A stretch of DNA of 64,000 bases from Escherichia coli (GTDB lineage: Bacteria > Pseudomonadota > Gammaproteobacteria > Enterobacterales > Enterobacteriaceae). Positions within the stretch are counted from its first letter, which is position 1. The number at the start of each line of letters is the position of its first letter. Location of the stretch: the NCBI RefSeq assembly GCF_011045215.1, contig NZ_CP049201.1. One strand, written 5' to 3'. This document shows positions 47,101 through 59,100 of the stretch, piece by piece. A program made the position numbers.

Positions 47101-50100
47101 ATCAGCAAATGATGGCGAAAATGCGACTGCGGCCAGTGCGCCGACCAGAAATTGCCCATCACATAATCGCTTTGTTGCTGCTCGCAGAGATCAAAACGGT
47201 ACATCGACTGCCAATGCTGATGATGATTAAACTGCAACACCCAATCATCACCCTCCTGCAACAACCGATACTCTCCGTGTGGCGTGGTCTGCACGAGATC
47301 GGGAACTAAACGAATCGGCGCGGTTAGCGTCTGCCCACCGAAACCGACATCAGCAATCCATTTTTCCTCTTCCAGTTCCACCAACAGCAAACGATGGGTG
47401 CGCGGGGGTAATGCTGGCGGATTTGATAACACTACCCGCCCTAACAAGCTGCGAACGTGAAACCCCAGCTCGCGTAACACCCGCTCAAACACGCCATTCT
47501 GCTCAAAACAGTAACCGCCACGACGGGCTATCACGAGTTTCTCTTCCAGCGATTGATCATCAAGCTGCATTTCCCTCGGCAGCAAAACGTCGAGGTTTTC
47601 AAACGGAATGGTGCAATTGTGTTTCAGGTGCAATGCACGAAGCGTATCAATATTGACCGCAGCAGTTCCCGACCAGTTAATACGGGCAAAATAGTGATTC
47701 AGAATGGGCGTCATCAGGCGTTTCCCTTAGTGGTTTTCTCAACTTATAACCTGGAATAGACGCCGCACCGGCTATTTTGTGCGATCGCGGACATGCATCA
47801 CGTTCGCAAATCGCCAATCCCGTTAATTTCGTTACTTATTGCGTTACGGACTACGCTTAAAAAAACCTTCTTCGCGAGGCGATACCATGAGCCGATTCAT
47901 CCCCATAGAATTACACCATGCCAGCCGTCTGTTAAATCATGGCCCAACTGTCTTGATCACCAGTTTCGATGAGCAATCCCAGCGGCGTAACATTATGGCT
48001 GCAGCCTGGTCAATGCCGGTGGAGTTTGAACCTCCACGCGTGGCGATTGTGGTAGATAAATCGACATGGACCAGGGAGTTGATTGAACATAACGGTAAAT
48101 TTGGCATCGTTATCCCGGGCGTTGCAGCAACTAACTGGACGTGGGCAGTGGGAAGTGTATCTGGGCGTGAAGAAGATAAATTTAATTGCTACGGCATTCC
48201 GGTGGTGAAAGGTCCGGTGCTTGGTTTGCCACTTGTTGAAGAGAAATGCCTGGCGTGGATGGAGTGCCGCCTGCTACCTGCGACTTCTGCGCAACAAAAA
48301 TACGACACGCTGTTTGGCGAGGTGGTATCAGCAGCGGCAGACGCACGGGTATTTGTCGAAGGCCGCTGGCAGTTTGATGATGATAAGCTCAATACGTTGC
48401 ATCATTTAGGTGCTGGCACGTTTGTTACCAGCGGCAAGCGAGTTACGGCAGGTTAAGCATTACATGCTGTAACCGGGTTTCTTTATCAAAGCCTCCATTT
48501 GGGGCGCGATTTCGGCATCCCAGATAGCTTGCCAAGATTCTGGTTGAATCTGCTGTAGAGCAATGCTTATCGAAATGTCTTTACTGTTCAGATGGCGAAT
48601 AATAACGTCGGTAATATCTGCAGCAAGTGCTGCTTTTTGTTGTTCGTCCAGTTCACGCGGAAAACATTTAATGTCGATGTGCGGCATGATTGTGCTCCTT
48701 TTGAAAGATGTCAGTAAAATTAACACACATTGTGAATGTCGTATGTCCGGTGATGCGTTTTTACGACAATAATGCCTACTTGAAATTGTAGATATTTGCA
48801 CTACACCCTTTTAAATAAAGCACCAACAAATCGTCAACTTGCAGAACATATTCTTCTGCCTACATACCATTAAGAAAACATCAAGTTTCCGACTTGCCAA
48901 TTTATTAATGCCCATTATAGACGCTGAAACAAGCCACGGACAAAGAAGATGCCAAAATTACCGGCGATGCAGAAAAACTCAACGAACCAGGGCAAGATTA
49001 CGAAAGCCCGCTCCCGCAAGGACTGACGCCAGATAGTTTCTGTCCATGGCTGCTTTTCGCATCTTACGTCTTAACCCTGCCTTGAATACCTTATCATTCG
49101 TCAAAATATTAATAGCAATGTGCCGTATCCCTGAAAATAATTCTGCAGCATTTCCTCTTCTTATTTTGCAGTCGTCTTCATTCATTACCACGTCCAGACG
49201 CCAGTGCAGCTTATTCTCCACGTGCCAGTGGTTTCGGATTGCTGTGGCGAACTTCTCTGCGGTTAAATCAGCAGAACTGATATAATATCTGACCGTCATT
49301 TCTGGCTCTTTCTTTTGTTCTGCTATTATTGACCGAAAGGAGACTGCCACGCATAATTTCTTCAGTCCTTTCCATTCAAACGTGAAATCAATAAGTTCAT
49401 CAGGGACATCGCAAACAATATGAAGACGGATTTCTTCTCTGCCGTGACTAAAATGCGAATTATTTAGTACAAAAAAAGCGGCGCACCTTGTTCTTTCCCA
49501 GATTCCTAATATGGCAACTTTAAGTTATCGCCGTCTATACTTATAGAAATTTCATCAGGGGTGACGTAAATAGAATTTTTTTCATCCTCAATTGCCCATA
49601 ACTGATTAATAAAAAAGTATTTTTTTCATCTAATAAAAAATTATCACATGTAGTAAAATTATTAATATCAAAAAAAATCATCAGCACAATTAATTTTTAA
49701 ATTTAAAAAATAAAGAAAAATATTATTGATTGATTTGAGTGTAAACCACTTGTCATTAACAAATTTATAGCCAGATGATTTTATAAAATAATAATTATCT
49801 CCTGGTATAAAGGCATACATATCATTTAAGGTTATACTCAACAAAAAACTACGACCTGGTTTAATAGTATTCCACCGTTCAGGATTCGTATTAATTTCAA
49901 AAGGACATGAACCACCTAAGTAGTCCAACGTGATATTCCCAGAGTTGATTCTGAATGGTTTTTTGCATATCGCATCATATTCATCTCCTTTTCCATCTTT
50001 TACTTTCATAGGTAGATAATATTTAGAAAAAAAATACGTGGTAGAGCTATTGTTAGTAAAGGTTATGTTAGCAAAAATCCTGTTATTTTTTTTACTCATA

Positions 50101-56100: not shown

Positions 56101-59100
56101 AAAGGTGTCCGGCTCCTGGCCGTCAACCTCCAGCGTAAAGCGCAGACCTTTTAAGGACATAAATACCTCTCAGACATATCAGCCTATATTTACCGTACCG
56201 CCACCAATGACCACGCCGCCGCAGTCAACAGCATCACCGCTTCTGGCGGCGGGCAGGCCGTCAATAAAGACGGTTGAAGAACCTCTGGCGATTTTACGGG
56301 GATGAGGGGGATGCTTCGGTTTAGCATGCGGCGTCAGCGGATCTCCCTGACGGGCTGCGGGGAGACCATCGATAAAAACGGTGGATGACCCGGCGGTGAT
56401 GACGGTCTCGTAATAACCGTCGTGCTGAGTGCCTTTGTCGGTGAGTTTGGCTGCTAAAGGCATAATTTCTCCTGTTCAGAATTTCTACAGCAGCAGGTTT
56501 CAAAAATCCGGAGAAATATTCAACGAAATATTAATCACTTCACCGGATATTCTGATACGTACCTTCACTGGTCTATTTAAGTAATACAAATTGTTGGCGT
56601 GTATTAAGTTCCATTTTGTTCTCCTTAATTATGTAAGGAGTATTTGATCATGTATAAGCAATAAAAACAGCTTCAGGAAATAAGGAATATCGCAATTTTT
56701 AAACATAAAATGCGAATCGTTCAATACAAAAAAGCAGCGTTGCGTAATCTTTCCCTGATTAAATACGCTACCGCCCTACCCTGATGACATGATCTGCACT
56801 GCACTATCATATCGACATGTTTCTCTACATGCGAAAAGATGTTTTATTTTCGGATTATATTAAATTGACATTTCATATAAAAAACGAAATTACATCAATC
56901 ATATAAATAATTGTACCAACTTTAATTACTATTCATAGCAAACAAATGGATATCCAGTTAACTACGCCAGTGATTCATTAACATTAACCTCCGGCATTAT
57001 TGTTAAATAATGACATTCCTTTTTAATACTTCTTGTAATTTCGGTAACTGACATACTGCATCAGCAATCGCACTGATATTCGTGGCATTATCCTGAAACC
57101 ATTCATGCCCAGGCCCCCATGTGCGCATAGTGCAAAGATAACAGTCCACCAGCGTTAGTTGCTCACCAAACGCATAAGGTTCAGCGGTCAATTGTGAATT
57201 CAGCCAGATATAAAGCGATTTACGATATTCAATAACATTCTTCTTTAACTGTTCAGGTGCGTCAGATGCCCAACGCTCAGGGTAATCGGCGAAAGTGAAT
57301 GTTGGATAGACATTAGCAACCAGCCAGACCAATAGCCGTTGAAACTGCTGACGTTCGGCGCGCCCAACCGGTGGCGCAAGGTCCGGGCGACGATCGAGAA
57401 CCATCAATGCAATCGCCGCTGTCTCCGTCATAATCTCGTCATTTTCCAGAGCCAGTGTCGGAACCTGACACAACGGGTTCAGGGTTTTCAATAACTCGCG
57501 TGAAGTTCCCTCGTGGTCAAAACCACTGACATCAACGAACTGATAAGGAATATCAGCTAGTGTTAGCATCAGCTCACTGATTGTAGAGCCCCATCCGGGT
57601 ACGCCATACACCTTAATCATATGCCCCTCACAATCTTTTAAAGATTAAGTGTAGGACAGTACACAGGTTAACCAGCAAAAGGATTTGTCATTTTTTCGTC
57701 AGTTGTATTGATCCCCTTCAGGATTGTAAGGGGATGTTTTGCATCGTTTATCGATAACGGGTAGGATGCTGCGCCGATAGTTTTATACCCATAAAGAATA
57801 ATGGTGATAACTATCATCGCCAGGATGAATAAACATTGTTCATGGCAACTTATATGACTTTTTCATTAAAGCAATCAGGGAGAGCAATGAGTAAACACGA
57901 CACCGACACTTCAGATCAACACGCCGCGAAACGCCGCTGGCTTAATGCCCACGAAGAGGGGTATCACAAAGCGATGGGCAATCGCCAGGTGCAGATGATC
58001 GCCATTGGCGGCGCGATTGGTACGGGTTTGTTTTTAGGCGCAGGAGCCCGACTGCAAATGGCGGGGCCAGCACTGGCATTGGTCTATTTGATCTGCGGCC
58101 TGTTTTCATTTTTTATTCTGCGTGCATTGGGTGAGCTGGTGTTACACCGCCCTTCCAGTGGCAGTTTTGTCTCTTATGCCCGCGAGTTTTTGGGTGAGAA
58201 AGCCGCTTATGTTGCGGGCTGGATGTACTTCATCAACTGGGCGATGACGGGGATTGTCGATATCACCGCCGTCGCTCTGTATATGCATTACTGGGGTGCG
58301 TTTGGCGGCGTGCCGCAGTGGGTCTTTGCGCTCGCTGCACTTACCATCGTTGGCACCATGAATATGATCGGTGTGAAATGGTTTGCGGAGATGGAGTTCT
58401 GGTTTGCGCTTATTAAAGTGCTCGCCATTGTGACCTTTTTGGTCGTGGGTACAGTGTTCCTCGGTAGTGGTCAGCCGCTGGATGGCAACACCACTGGCTT
58501 TCATTTAATCACCGATAATGGCGGCTTCTTCCCCCACGGTTTGCTGCCTGCGCTGGTGTTGATTCAGGGCGTAGTGTTTGCTTTTGCCTCCATTGAAATG
58601 GTGGGTACAGCTGCCGGAGAATGTAAAGATCCGCAGACCATGGTGCCTAAAGCCATTAACAGTGTGATTTGGCGTATTGGCCTGTTTTACGTCGGCTCCG
58701 TGGTGTTGCTGGTTATGTTATTGCCGTGGAGCGCGTATCAGGCGGGGCAAAGTCCGTTCGTGACGTTTTTCTCTAAACTGGGTGTGCCATATATCGGCAG
58801 CATTATGAACATTGTGGTGCTGACCGCTGCCCTCTCCAGCCTGAACTCAGGCCTGTACTGCACCGGGCGTATTCTGCGCTCGATGGCGATGGGCGGTTCC
58901 GCACCGAGTTTTATGGCGAAAATGAGTCGTCAGCATGTGCCGTATGCCGGGATTCTGGCGACACTGGTTGTGTATGTCGTCGGCGTATTCCTCAACTATC
59001 TGGTGCCGTCGCGCGTATTTGAGATTGTGTTGAACTTCGCGTCGCTGGGAATCATCGCTTCATGGGCGTTTATCATCGTGTGCCAGATGCGCCTGCGTAA

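What the first reader, a model, noticed from the sequence alone, without database searches (positions are those of the whole stretch)
49668..56160. Compositional break inside the island: GC-typical vgrG, strongly AT-rich cargo
By eye, vgrG and the PAAR gene have backbone-like GC content, whereas everything from about 54170 downward to 49600 is very AT-rich with long A/T runs. This matches the pattern of a conserved spike gene with horizontally swapped cargo and marks about 54100-54180 as the likely recombination joint.
Basis: seen in the sequence. Interest (0 to 1): 0.4.

Follow-up and report, generated by a model that had tools for sequence, protein, structure and literature searches.

The report
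Chimeric vgrG spike with swapped toxin cargo
This is an ordinary E. coli type VI secretion "spike plus toxin" island in which the last ~130 codons of the spike gene travel with the known Cpe1 toxin cassette; the GC break is real, but it lies about 0.4 kb inside the spike gene, not after it.

Summary
The GC step is real and is the largest in the 64-kb window at the 1-1.5 kb scale. It is misplaced by about 0.4 kb and partly mis-described.

- **Composition.** The vgrG core (60% GC, GC3 0.76) is richer than the backbone (51%, GC3 0.54), not typical of it. The cargo is 28-39% GC.
- **Position of the break.** GC change-points fall at 54,405-54,775. Ten E. coli vgrG alleles place the start of cargo-linked sequence, and this allele's crossover, at 54,563-54,565 (codon 532/533). 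Nothing breaks in the 54,100-54,180 spacer.
- **Location.** The island sits at the yncG/pptA (K-12 RhsE) locus.
- **First cassette.** PAAR and the vgrG core are followed by a 3.4-kb cassette: vgrG tail, DUF2169 chaperone, the known Cpe1 toxin (toxin domain 100% identical to PDB 9L5U) and Cpi1. It ends in a 29-bp H-rpt/ISAs1 scar at 51,187.
- **Second cassette.** An older, displaced cassette follows: 56 bp of a former vgrG tail, a frameshifted M35 peptidase toxin gene, a putative immunity gene and a deleted H-rpt.

Cargo swapping is therefore supported, but it is nested and happens within vgrG. The pattern is already published. Low interest.

The parts
56604..56757 (-). Solo left-end remnant of an H-rpt/ISAs1 element in the AT-rich yncG-PAAR spacer. 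It holds the terminal inverted repeat CAGGGAAAGATTACG plus ~150 bp, up to the first 4 codons of the transposase. It marks the upstream edge of the island.
   Evidence: 93.8% identical to positions 26-155 of the K-12 H-rptE (ydcC) element. Aligns with the IS 5' ends of UTI89, A30 and SCU-387, and the flanks diverge exactly at CAGGG.
56179..56463 (-). Canonical T6SS PAAR protein gene (94 aa), 57.5% GC.
   Evidence: Pfam PAAR_motif 75 bits. NCBIfam T6SS_PAAR_dom 156.5 bits against a cutoff of 124. GC.
54566..56160 (-). vgrG codons 1-531: conserved gp27/gp5 spike core. It is not linked to cargo type. 58.6% GC, GC3 about 0.73-0.76.
   Evidence: Phage_GPD, Phage_base_V and Gp5_trimer_C hits, and TIGR03361 at 601 bits covering aa 8-519. 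There are no fixed differences between Cpe1-type and M35-type alleles upstream of 54,569. The window matches the Ecol_316 allele at 36 of 37 informative sites between 54,566 and 54,844.
54562..54566 (-). Recombination breakpoint inside vgrG (codon 532/533). The crossover itself lies in 54,563-54,565.
   Evidence: The window and A30 carry M35-type bases at 54,569, 54,567 and 54,566, and Cpe1-type bases from 54,562 onward.
54178..54562 (-). vgrG codons 533-660: cargo-linked C-terminal tail, 42.9% GC. GC3 falls from 0.73 to 0.34 after codon 577.
   Evidence: 98-100% identical to the four Cpe1-type alleles and no more than 72% identical to every other cargo type. GC3 change-point; GC.
53025..54071 (-). 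DUF2169 accessory (chaperone) gene, 348 aa, 37.2% GC.
   Evidence: Pfam DUF2169 245 bits. Its role as chaperone of VgrG-PIPY spike tips is described in PMC11883445.
51593..53032 (-). cpe1: PAAR-like (DUF4150/PIPY) N-terminal domain, a linker, and a C-terminal papain-like cysteine protease toxin (479 aa). The conserved carrier region ends at about 52,081 (codon ~317, motif WGFMIPAK).
   Evidence: PF13665 46.6 bits against a cutoff of 31, and Peptidase_C39 27.5 bits. Residues 337-479 are 100% identical to PDB 9L5U_A. A cysteine is present at position 362, the catalytic residue named in PMC12136450. A30 diverges from the window at 52,081.
51328..51618 (-). cpi1 immunity gene (96 aa). It overlaps cpe1 by 26 bp.
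   Evidence: 95 of 96 residues identical to PDB 9L5U_C, Cpi1.
51187..51215 (-). 29-bp scar of an H-rpt/ISAs1 left end (CAGGGAAAGGTCAAGTAATGCTGCTTTTT). It closes the Cpe1 cassette. The downstream joint is at 51,184-51,187.
   Evidence: Alignment with the UTI89 and SCU-387 cpi1-IS junctions and the raw sequence. Of the 563 matching records among 5,426 complete genomes, 34 span the junction. Every other record listed (38 of 40 rows shown) breaks at query 235-238, which is window 51,184-51,187.
51131..51186 (-). Last 56 bp of a former, longer vgrG (the 801-aa type). It is the remnant of the displaced resident spike tail.
   Evidence: The collinear match to Ecol_316 resumes at window 51,186, which equals L004 position 8314. 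This lies inside the Ecol_316 vgrG 3' end (CDS 8259-10664).
50351..51141 (-). M35-like metallopeptidase toxin gene, now a pseudogene. A 1-bp deletion in an A-run at 50,707 causes a frameshift just upstream of the HEMSH motif.
   Evidence: The gene is an intact 263 aa in Ecol_316, PapM-32-1 and 2018-05-2CC. The same frameshift is present in O145:H28. The Pfam Aspzincin_M35 hit is only 18.9 bits, below the cutoff.
49668..50327 (-). ORF of 219 aa with an N-terminal signal-peptide-like sequence. It is the putative periplasmic immunity partner of M35, shortened relative to 261 aa in Ecol_316. 28% GC.
   Evidence: Translation. Homopolymer indels among genomes. No family assignment. The function is inferred from position and from M35 immunity precedents.
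48988..49501 (-). Internally deleted H-rpt/ISAs1 copy: about 52 bp of the left end joined to the last 463 bp, which holds a 123-aa transposase fragment. The right inverted repeat is at 48,988. This is the downstream edge of the island.
   Evidence: 98% identical to K-12 H-rptE at L010 9501-9964, plus a 27-bp piece of the 5' end. Raw sequence. DDE_Tnp_1 hit.

Best explanation
The region is an auxiliary type VI secretion effector island at the E. coli yncG/pptA locus, which is the RhsE locus of K-12. It is built from modules with different histories.

**The modules**
- The PAAR gene and the first ~531 codons of vgrG form a GC-rich, highly conserved spike core. This core is shared by many vgrG copies within and between genomes and is not tied to any cargo.
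- From codon ~532 the gene switches to an AT-rich tail. The tail is inherited together with the DUF2169 chaperone, the PIPY-domain toxin Cpe1 and its immunity protein Cpi1.

**Why the tail travels with the cargo (inferred)**
- The C-terminal end of the VgrG trimer is the surface that the DUF2169-PIPY-toxin complex must dock on.
- Tail, adaptor, toxin and immunity therefore behave as one functional and recombinational unit.

**History at this locus**
1. The 3.4-kb Cpe1 unit (51,187-54,562) replaced the tail of a resident 801-aa vgrG through a crossover in the conserved core at 54,563-54,565.
2. Its far end is an illegitimate joint inside a trailing H-rpt/ISAs1 left end.
3. The older cargo was left downstream as an orphan: 56 bp of the old vgrG tail, an M35 peptidase toxin gene and a putative periplasmic immunity gene.
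4. That orphan can no longer be loaded on the spike and is decaying; M35 is frameshifted.

**Shown versus inferred**
- Shown: the composition step, the domain content, identity to crystallised Cpe1/Cpi1, the mosaic boundaries and the pseudogene.
- Inferred: the order of events, the docking role of the tail, T6SS-dependent delivery in this strain, and loss of M35 loading.
For: **Composition**
- vgrG aa 1-450 is GC 0.60 with GC3 0.756. The tail is 0.41-0.43, the Cpe1 cassette 0.376, the M35 cassette 0.298, and the backbone 0.511 with GC3 0.538.
- Change-points lie at 54,405-54,775 for total GC and 54,418-54,541 for GC3.

**Mosaic structure**
- Against Ecol_316 (same locus), the window is collinear over 54,471-58,500 and 48,987-51,186 only.
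- Against UTI89 (main T6SS cluster), it is collinear over 51,184-56,169 only.
- Diagnostic sites: there are zero class-fixed differences upstream of 54,569 and 185 downstream. The window switches type between 54,566 and 54,562.
- Population scale: PAAR-vgrG alleles with other cargo end their match at 54,493-54,500. The downstream joint at 51,184-51,187 splits the records that carry only one of the two cassettes.

**Function**
- VgrG, PAAR, DUF2169 and DUF4150 domains all score above curated cut-offs.
- The Cpe1 toxin domain is 100% identical, and Cpi1 95/96 identical, to PDB 9L5U.
- Cpe1 is a T6SS-delivered cysteine protease that cleaves GyrB and ParE (PMC12136450).
- DUF2169 is required for PIPY-VgrG spike formation (PMC11883445).

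**Displacement**
- A 56-bp remnant of the old vgrG tail and the M35 frameshift are present.
- A30 shows an intermediate state: immunity gene, IS 5' piece, 266-aa vgrG remnant, then older M23 cargo.

**Precedents**
- GC-rich vgrG N-terminal region and AT-rich C-terminal extension plus island in Pantoea and Erwinia (PMC3235180).
- Recombination within vgrG that displaces the C-terminal coding part and all downstream genes (PMC8546570).
Against: - No experiment or structure here shows that VgrG residues 533-660 contact DUF2169 or Cpe1.
- The window holds no T6SS core genes, so activity in this strain is unknown.
- The GC3 change-point (codon 577, interval 540-581) lies 25-135 bp downstream of the crossover rather than exactly on it. 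The same internal GC3 step exists in the UTI89 allele. The compositional boundary is therefore an older feature of the Cpe1-type allele, not a product of the crossover seen in this lineage.
- The donor of the AT-rich cassette could not be identified. The nearest non-E. coli DUF2169 proteins are only 55-59% identical.
- The island also carries a canonical PAAR. Its relation to the PIPY cap on the same VgrG is unresolved.
- M35 is intact in two other carriers of the displaced arrangement, so decay is not uniform.
Confidence: 0.88

Rival explanations
1. One reading: the whole of vgrG is the conserved unit, and the recombination joint lies in the vgrG-DUF2169 intergenic spacer at 54,100-54,180.
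For: The lowest GC in the neighbourhood (0.29-0.33) does begin at the spacer. There is also a small rise, from 0.31 to about 0.40, on entering the vgrG 3' end.
Against: - UTI89, SCU-387 and A30 are 98-100% identical to the window across 53,841-54,560, spacer included.
- All alleles with other cargo have already dropped to 72% identity or less by 54,540, and to about 45% by 54,480.
- Change-point intervals exclude 54,180.
Confidence: 0.03
2. There was no exchange. The GC decline reflects amino-acid composition of the beta-helix or tail, or in-situ AT-biased decay of weakly selected DNA.
For: - GC1 and GC2 do fall earlier, around codons 463-479, while GC3 stays high. Part of the gradual decline between 54,800 and 54,560 is therefore due to protein composition.
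- The M35 gene and the 219-aa ORF are decaying.
Against: - GC3 drops from 0.73 to 0.34, which is a synonymous-site signal.
- The same core is joined to unrelated tails and cargo in other strains.
- cpe1, cpi1 and the DUF2169 gene are intact, and the Cpe1 toxin domain is identical to a functional toxin, yet these genes are 30-39% GC.
Confidence: 0.03
3. The cargo cassettes are moved mainly by the H-rpt/ISAs1 element rather than by homologous recombination in vgrG. This could be by transposition, or by use of IS copies as the downstream homology.
For: - Every cassette examined ends in an H-rpt left end: window 51,187-51,215 and 49,449-49,501, and the UTI89, SCU-387, A30, Ecol_316 and K-12 RhsE loci.
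- A further solo left end lies upstream of PAAR, at 56,604-56,757.
- Every listed record that carries the Cpe1 cassette without the M35 junction keeps its match into this IS scar, down to window 51,184-51,187.
Against: - There are no target-site duplications around the IS ends.
- All copies in the window are remnants without a complete transposase.
- The upstream joint lies in homologous vgrG sequence, not at an IS end.
- The downstream joint is 29 bp inside the IS, not at its terminus, which looks like a later deletion.
Confidence: 0.15

Closest known systems
Cpe1/Cpi1 T6SS effector-immunity pair of E. coli ATCC 11775 (PLoS Biol 2025, PMC12136450; PDB 9L5U)
   Same: - The toxin domain (aa 337-479) is 100% identical and the immunity protein is 95/96 identical.
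- A cysteine is present at position 362, the catalytic residue.
- RefSeq annotates the same genes as cpe1 and cpi1 in other E. coli.
   Different: - Here the cassette sits at the auxiliary yncG/pptA locus, behind a resident PAAR and vgrG core, and ahead of a displaced M35 cassette.
- In UTI89-type strains it follows hcp in the main T6SS cluster.
- The genomic context in ATCC 11775 was not checked.
DUF2169 'synteny type B' spike modules: vgrG, DUF2169, then a DUF4150/PIPY effector (Sachar et al., JBC 2025, PMC11883445)
   Same: Same gene order and domains, with vgrG followed immediately by a single-domain DUF2169 gene and then a DUF4150-toxin fusion.
   Different: - The P(I/V)P(Y/F) motif is only partly matched (KVPF at aa 29-32).
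- A canonical PAAR gene lies immediately upstream of vgrG, whereas the paper reports that DUF2169 is rarely found next to PAAR genes.
vgrG islands with a GC-rich conserved vgrG N-terminal region and an AT-rich C-terminal extension plus island (De Maayer et al. 2011, PMC3235180), and recombination within vgrG that displaces the C-terminal part and downstream genes (Agrobacterium, mBio 2021, PMC8546570)
   Same: - The same compositional pattern: 63.7% against 46.6% GC there, 58.6-60% against 43% here.
- The same inference that the vgrG 3' end belongs to the island.
   Different: - The host and locus differ.
- Here the breakpoint is resolved to 3 bp.
- A displaced older cassette and IS scars document the order of events.
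Rhs elements of E. coli K-12 (RhsE at the same locus): C-terminal displacement and orphan toxin-immunity arrays
   Same: - Same chromosomal site.
- Same logic: a GC-rich conserved core, an AT-rich variable tip with immunity gene, a trailing H-rpt, and displaced older tips left downstream. The general description of Rhs elements rests on my own knowledge of the Rhs literature (Hill 1994; Jackson 2009), not checked here.
   Different: - No Rhs/YD-repeat protein is encoded in the window island.
- The displaced unit is a vgrG tail plus cargo, not an Rhs C-terminal tip.
VgrG-DUF2345-M35 metallopeptidase toxin modules (P. aeruginosa VgrG2b; E. coli PAR; Commun Biol 2023, PMC10673891)
   Same: - In intact relatives an M35-annotated toxin gene with HEMSH follows directly after, and overlaps, a long vgrG with a C-terminal extension. 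A putative periplasmic immunity gene comes next.
- Periplasmic toxicity of an E. coli M35-like effector has been reported (PMC7904677).
   Different: - In the window the gene is frameshifted and separated from its cognate vgrG extension.
- The Pfam M35 and DUF2345 scores are below the curated cut-offs.

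Membership tests
T6SS VgrG/TssI spike protein | gp27-like hub, gp5 OB-fold and gp5 C-terminal beta-helix domains; TIGR03361 above its cutoff | tested here: met
   Phage_GPD 251.7 bits, Phage_base_V 53.6 bits, Gp5_trimer_C 103.9 bits. TIGR03361 601 bits against a cutoff of 186.
T6SS VgrG/TssI spike protein | Works with a T6SS core apparatus encoded in the same genome | not testable with these tools
   Only 64 kb of the genome is available and no T6SS core genes were found in the parts of the window examined. The closest relative, PapM-32-1, has another PAAR-vgrG pair elsewhere in its chromosome (H86).
DUF2169-PIPY (DUF4150) spike-tip module, synteny type B | A DUF2169 gene directly downstream of vgrG, followed by a gene with a DUF4150 domain | tested here: met
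   PF09937 245 bits. PF13665 46.6 bits against a cutoff of 31. The order is vgrG, DUF2169, cpe1, with an 8-bp overlap between the last two.
DUF2169-PIPY (DUF4150) spike-tip module, synteny type B | Conserved P(I/V)P(Y/F) motif in the cone domain | tested here: inconclusive
   The sequence has G-Y-K-V-P-F at aa 27-32, so 3 of the 4 motif positions match and K replaces the first P (translation; motif definition).
Cpe1/Cpi1 papain-like cysteine protease effector and immunity | Toxin domain with the catalytic Cys362 (part of the catalytic triad), and an adjacent cognate immunity gene | tested here: met
   100% identity to 9L5U_A over aa 337-479. Cysteine at position 362. Cpi1 is 95/96 identical to 9L5U_C, and its gene overlaps the end of cpe1.
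Cpe1/Cpi1 papain-like cysteine protease effector and immunity | T6SS-dependent delivery and cleavage of GyrB and ParE in target cells | not testable with these tools
   Shown for the identical toxin domain in ATCC 11775 (PMC12136450), not for this strain.
Modular vgrG island (chimeric vgrG with cargo-linked 3' end) | The same vgrG core is joined to different tails and cargo in other strains, with a compositional break inside vgrG | tested here: met
   Five cargo types follow cores that are 92-100% identical. There are zero class-fixed differences upstream of 54,569 and 185 downstream. GC3 falls from 0.73 to 0.34.
M35 (aspzincin-like) metallopeptidase T6SS toxin | Intact ORF with an HExxH motif that scores above the Pfam M35 cutoff | tested here: not met
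   The window copy is frameshifted at 50,707, before HEMSH. Even the intact Ecol_316 homologue scores 18.9 bits against a cutoff of 30. The name comes from RefSeq annotation.
H-rpt / ISAs1-family insertion sequence | Terminal inverted repeats starting CAGGG, flanking a DDE transposase gene of about 378 aa | tested here: not met
   The ends are present and 94-98% identical to K-12 H-rptE (1,291 bp), but all three copies in the window are remnants. Only a 123-aa transposase fragment survives, and there are no target duplications.
Rhs element (as at this locus in K-12) | A large YD-repeat Rhs core protein | tested here: not met
   No Rhs/YD ORF or Pfam hit lies between yncG and pptA in the window. 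K-12 has the rhsE pseudogene here.

The most novel reading that the evidence does not exclude
The trailing H-rpt/ISAs1 left end may be more than a passenger. It could be the distal anchor of a two-anchor cassette system, with the conserved vgrG (or Rhs) core as the proximal homology and H-rpt as the distal homology. Successive cassette captures would then build nested arrays of displaced, decaying toxin-immunity pairs. On this reading the window preserves the only intact copy of the Cpe1-at-yncG stage. All 34 other carriers of the same cpi1|M35 joint among 5,426 complete genomes have since lost it by independent deletions or IS hits.
Probability: 0.25. Interest if true: 0.4.

Novelty: already known. 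Interest (0 to 1): 0.2.

Why it matters
**For annotation**
- The cargo-specifying unit of this kind of island starts inside vgrG, near codon 532, not at its stop codon.
- Effector-swap boundaries and "vgrG typing" should therefore use the tail.
- The AT-rich stretch should be read as two cassettes, one live (Cpe1/Cpi1) and one orphaned (M35).

**For biology**
- It adds a clean, base-pair-resolved E. coli example of nested cargo displacement at the classical RhsE locus.
- It shows that the degraded O145:H28 island derives from this arrangement.
- It does not reveal a new kind of system.

Tried and rejected
1. **The whole island as the inside of a single split ISAs1 element.** The left inverted repeat is at 56,757 and the right one at 48,988. 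I rejected this because the pptA-proximal copy has its own (degenerate) left end at 49,501, and there is no target-site duplication.
2. **A search for the low-GC donor of the cassette, using the DUF2169 protein.** Outside the E. coli cluster the best hits are 55-59% identical (Salmonella salamae, Escherichia sp., Hafnia). No donor can be named.
3. **Promoter and terminator scan of 49.3-57.1 kb.** There were many promoter-like hits, as expected for AT-rich DNA. No convincing terminator follows vgrG or cpi1. The scan was uninformative.
4. **Whether the O145:H28 deletion (52,095-54,686) reflects a module boundary.** One end lies 13 bp from the carrier/toxin boundary seen in A30. However, the junction shows only ATG microhomology, so I treat it as a simple deletion.
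5. **Literature search for H-rpt/Rhs/ISAs1.** It returned nothing useful in the held library. Statements on the classical Rhs-H-rpt association rest on my own knowledge.
6. **NCBIfam.** It gave no family for DUF2169, Cpe1, Cpi1, M35 or the 219-aa ORF.

Full report
**1. The observation**

The GC step is real.
- In 400-bp windows, GC is 0.26-0.40 from 49.4 to 54.4 kb and climbs to 0.58-0.64 between 54.6 and 56.0 kb.
- It is the largest step in the 64-kb window at half-windows of 1 kb (+0.214 at 54,740) and 1.5 kb (+0.216 at 54,490). None of 200 block-shuffled versions exceeded 0.171.
- A/T runs of six or more occur at 5.5 per kb in the cargo and in the vgrG tail. They occur at 0 per kb in the vgrG core plus PAAR, and at 0.6-0.9 per kb elsewhere.

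- The step is not at 54.10-54.18 kb.
  - The two-segment maximum-likelihood change-point is 54,484 (2-lnL interval 54,406-54,773).
  - A three-segment model puts the boundaries at 54,405 and 54,760, with GC of 0.37, 0.48 and 0.60.
- vgrG is not "GC-typical".
  - Codons 1-450 are 60.0% GC with GC3 0.756, and hold the only 400-bp windows above 0.60 in the whole window.
  - Eight flanking backbone genes pool to GC 0.511 and GC3 0.538.

Codon-position analysis explains why the decline looks gradual.
- GC1 and GC2 fall around codons 463-479. This is the amino-acid composition of the gp5 beta-helix.
- GC3 stays at about 0.73 until a sharp drop to 0.34 after codon 577 (interval codons 540-581, window 54,418-54,541).

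**2. What is there**

All genes are on the minus strand, between yncG (57,003-57,620) and pptA (48,460-48,687).

| Feature | Coordinates | Note |
|---|---|---|
| PAAR | 56,179-56,463 | canonical T6SS PAAR |
| vgrG | 54,178-56,160 | 660 aa |
| DUF2169 gene | 53,025-54,071 | accessory protein |
| PAAR-like (DUF4150) plus peptidase-C39-like protein | 51,593-53,032 | 479 aa |
| small ORF | 51,328-51,618 | 96 aa |
| two ORFs of one broken gene | 50,351-51,198 | M35-like |
| ORF with signal-peptide-like start | 49,668-50,327 | 219 aa |
| ISAs1 transposase fragment | 48,979-49,350 | 123 aa |

- The 479-aa protein is Cpe1. Residues 337-479 are 100% identical to PDB 9L5U chain A, and the 96-aa ORF is 95/96 identical to Cpi1 in the same entry.
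- Cpe1 of E. coli ATCC 11775 is a T6SS-delivered papain-like cysteine protease that cleaves GyrB and ParE. Its catalytic residue is Cys362, and Cpi1 neutralises it (PMC12136450). The window protein has a cysteine at 362.
- In K-12 this chromosomal site is the RhsE element: yncG, yncH, rhsE', ydcD, and H-rpt genes yncI and ydcC, then pptA.

**3. Comparative mapping of the joints**

Pairwise comparisons:

| Comparator | Its arrangement | Collinear with the window over |
|---|---|---|
| Ecol_316 (same locus) | PAAR, vgrG of 801 aa, M35, hypothetical gene, ISAs1 | 54,471-58,500 and 48,987-51,186 only |
| UTI89 (main T6SS cluster next to yafV/ivy/fadE) | hcp, vgrG, DUF2169, cpe1, cpi1, ISAs1 | 51,184-56,169 only |

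- In 60-bp bins, the window is 95-100% like Ecol_316 and 82-87% like UTI89 between 54,561 and 54,800. It then becomes 98-100% like UTI89 and falls to 75% and then about 45% like Ecol_316.
- Site by site, the window matches Ecol_316 at 36 of 37 informative sites from 54,844 to 54,566. It matches UTI89 at all but one site from 54,562 downward.
- With ten alleles, there is not one fixed difference between four Cpe1-type and three M35-type vgrG genes upstream of 54,569 (codon 531). There are 185 fixed differences downstream.
- The window and strain A30 carry the M35-type bases at 54,569, 54,567 and 54,566, and Cpe1-type bases from 54,562 on.
- The cargo-linked part of vgrG therefore begins at codon ~531-533. 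This allele's crossover lies at 54,563-54,565, which is 385 bp upstream of the stop codon.
- This position is just past the end of the TIGR03361 core (aa 8-519) and near the end of Gp5_trimer_C (aa 468-542).
- At population scale, dozens of listed genomes with PAAR-vgrG and other cargo end their megablast match at window 54,493-54,500.
- Nothing breaks in the spacer at 54,072-54,177.
- The same internal GC3 step occurs at codon 577 in the UTI89 allele. The compositional boundary is thus an older property of the Cpe1-type tail, and the lineage-specific crossover sits just upstream of it.

**4. The cargo is two nested cassettes**

- The downstream end of the Cpe1 cassette is equally sharp. Of the 563 matching records among 5,426 complete genomes, 34 span window 50,950-51,450.
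- Every other record listed (38 of the 40 rows shown) breaks at 51,184-51,187. The Cpe1-type records match only the upper part and the M35-type records only the lower part.
- The cassette ends in 29 bp of an H-rpt/ISAs1 left end (CAGGGAAAGGTCAAGTAATGCTGCTTTTT, 51,187-51,215). This is fused to what, in Ecol_316, are the last 56 bp of the 801-aa vgrG (51,131-51,186).
- Next comes the M35-like gene (50,351-51,141). In the window it carries a 1-bp deletion in an A-run at 50,707, just before its HEMSH motif. O145:H28 shares the frameshift, whereas the gene is intact (263 aa) in Ecol_316, PapM-32-1 and 2018-05-2CC.
- The 219-aa ORF that follows has a signal-peptide-like start and varies by homopolymer indels among genomes. 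I infer that it is the periplasmic immunity partner.
  - This rests on precedents for VgrG-DUF2345-M35-immunity modules (PMC10673891).
  - It also rests on periplasmic toxicity of an E. coli M35-like effector (PMC7904677).
- The island ends with an internally deleted H-rpt (48,988-49,501). A further solo H-rpt left end lies upstream of PAAR at 56,604-56,757.
- Strain A30 shows an intermediate stage of the same process. The gene order there is PAAR, vgrG, DUF2169, PAAR-like gene, small ORF, IS 5' piece, a 266-aa vgrG remnant, M23 peptidase, hypothetical gene, ISAs1.
- The retained 56-bp tail polarises the event. The Cpe1 cassette entered an island that already held the 801-aa vgrG and M35.

**5. 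Mechanism**

- DUF2169 genes strictly co-occur with vgrG and DUF4150 (PIPY) genes. DUF2169 is needed for a PIPY domain to form a functional spike with VgrG (PMC11883445).
- The polymorphic VgrG C-terminus confers effector specificity (stated in PMC8546570). From my own knowledge, this follows Bondage et al. 2016, and PAAR-type cones sit on the blunt C-terminal end of the VgrG beta-helix (Shneider et al. 2013).
- I therefore infer that residues ~533-660 are the docking surface for DUF2169-Cpe1. That would explain why tail, chaperone, toxin and immunity are inherited as one block, while the core recombines freely among vgrG copies.
- After the swap, M35 lost its cognate VgrG extension. Its decay fits that loss, but this is inference.
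- Whether the upstream canonical PAAR competes with the PIPY cone for the same trimer is open.

**6. Comparison with what is known, and novelty**

- De Maayer et al. 2011 reported the same pattern in Pantoea and Erwinia: vgrG N-terminal regions at 63.7% GC against C-terminal extensions at 46.6%. They concluded that the extensions belong to the vgrG islands (PMC3235180).
- Work on agrobacteria described recombination within vgrG that moves the C-terminal coding part together with all downstream genes (PMC8546570).
- Cpe1/Cpi1, DUF2169-PIPY and M35 modules have all been characterised.
- The architecture parallels Rhs C-terminal displacement with trailing H-rpt (my own knowledge).
- I therefore rate the phenomenon as already known.

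The instance-specific points are modest.
- The breakpoint is resolved to 3 bp.
- The displacement is nested and leaves IS scars.
- None of the 34 complete genomes sharing the cpi1|M35 joint keeps the island intact.
  - Only one record covers at least 80% of 48,400-57,700, and it is disrupted by IS600.
  - PapM-32-1 lacks most of vgrG and DUF2169.
  - O145:H28 strains have a 52,095-54,686 deletion.

**7. Verdict**

- This is an ordinary, well-understood kind of island, of low interest.

Noticed in passing
window 56604-56757, 51187-51215, 48988-49501: There are three H-rpt/ISAs1 left-end remnants, one after each cargo cassette and one upstream of PAAR. In every related locus examined (UTI89, SCU-387, A30, Ecol_316, K-12 RhsE) a cassette ends in an H-rpt left end. 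No target-site duplications were seen.
   Followed up: partly
window 50351-51141 (frameshift at 50707): The M35-like metallopeptidase toxin gene is a pseudogene through a 1-bp deletion in an A-run, just upstream of the HEMSH motif. O145:H28 strains share the identical lesion, but the gene is intact in PapM-32-1, 2018-05-2CC and Ecol_316.
   Followed up: yes
window 48400-57700 against 5,426 complete E. coli genomes: The cpi1|IS-scar|M35 junction occurs in 34 complete genomes, and none of them has the island intact. There are independent lesions: IS600 plus a deletion in 2018-05-2CC, loss of vgrG and DUF2169 in PapM-32-1, and a 2.6-kb deletion (52,095-54,686) in O145:H28. The window carries the intact PAAR-vgrG-DUF2169-cpe1-cpi1 form. 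Its closest backbone relative is the baboon isolate PapM-32-1 (99.3%).
   Followed up: partly
window ~52081 (cpe1 codon ~317); L007 8513-9508: Strain A30 is 98.6% identical to the window from 58,500 down to 52,081. It then diverges just after a WG(F/W)(M/V)IPAK motif, and its PAAR-like protein stops 14 residues later (331 aa, no toxin domain). This suggests a second-level swap boundary between the carrier region and the toxin domain.
   Followed up: partly
window 56464-57002: The yncG-PAAR spacer is 32.5% GC and forms the second-largest GC step of the window, at about 56,370-56,450. A segment at 56,763-56,799 matches K-12 sequence between yncH and rhsE.
   Followed up: no
window 49668-50327: The 219-aa ORF with a signal-peptide-like N-terminus has no family assignment. 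Its length varies among genomes (114 to 261 aa) through homopolymer indels. This could be decay or assembly error.
   Followed up: partly
window 33200-37500: This is a second long AT-rich block (GC below 0.40). It lies next to a porin gene (33,509-34,609) and contains two ORFs without Pfam hits and a leucine-rich-repeat protein (36,079-37,353). From memory it resembles the K-12 yddL/yddK/yddJ region.
   Followed up: partly
window 1-400, 7000-7900, 12100-12400, 13100, 23000-23300: These are further short stretches with GC below 0.40. There is a sharp step at about 7,840-7,940, the third largest in the window.
   Followed up: no
L005 (Nissle 1917) 8256-16802: Nissle 1917 carries two tandem PAAR-vgrG units at the yncG locus. 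One has a DUF4123 adaptor and two hypothetical genes, the other has M35. This shows that the locus can stack complete spike-cargo units as well as displaced tails.
   Followed up: no
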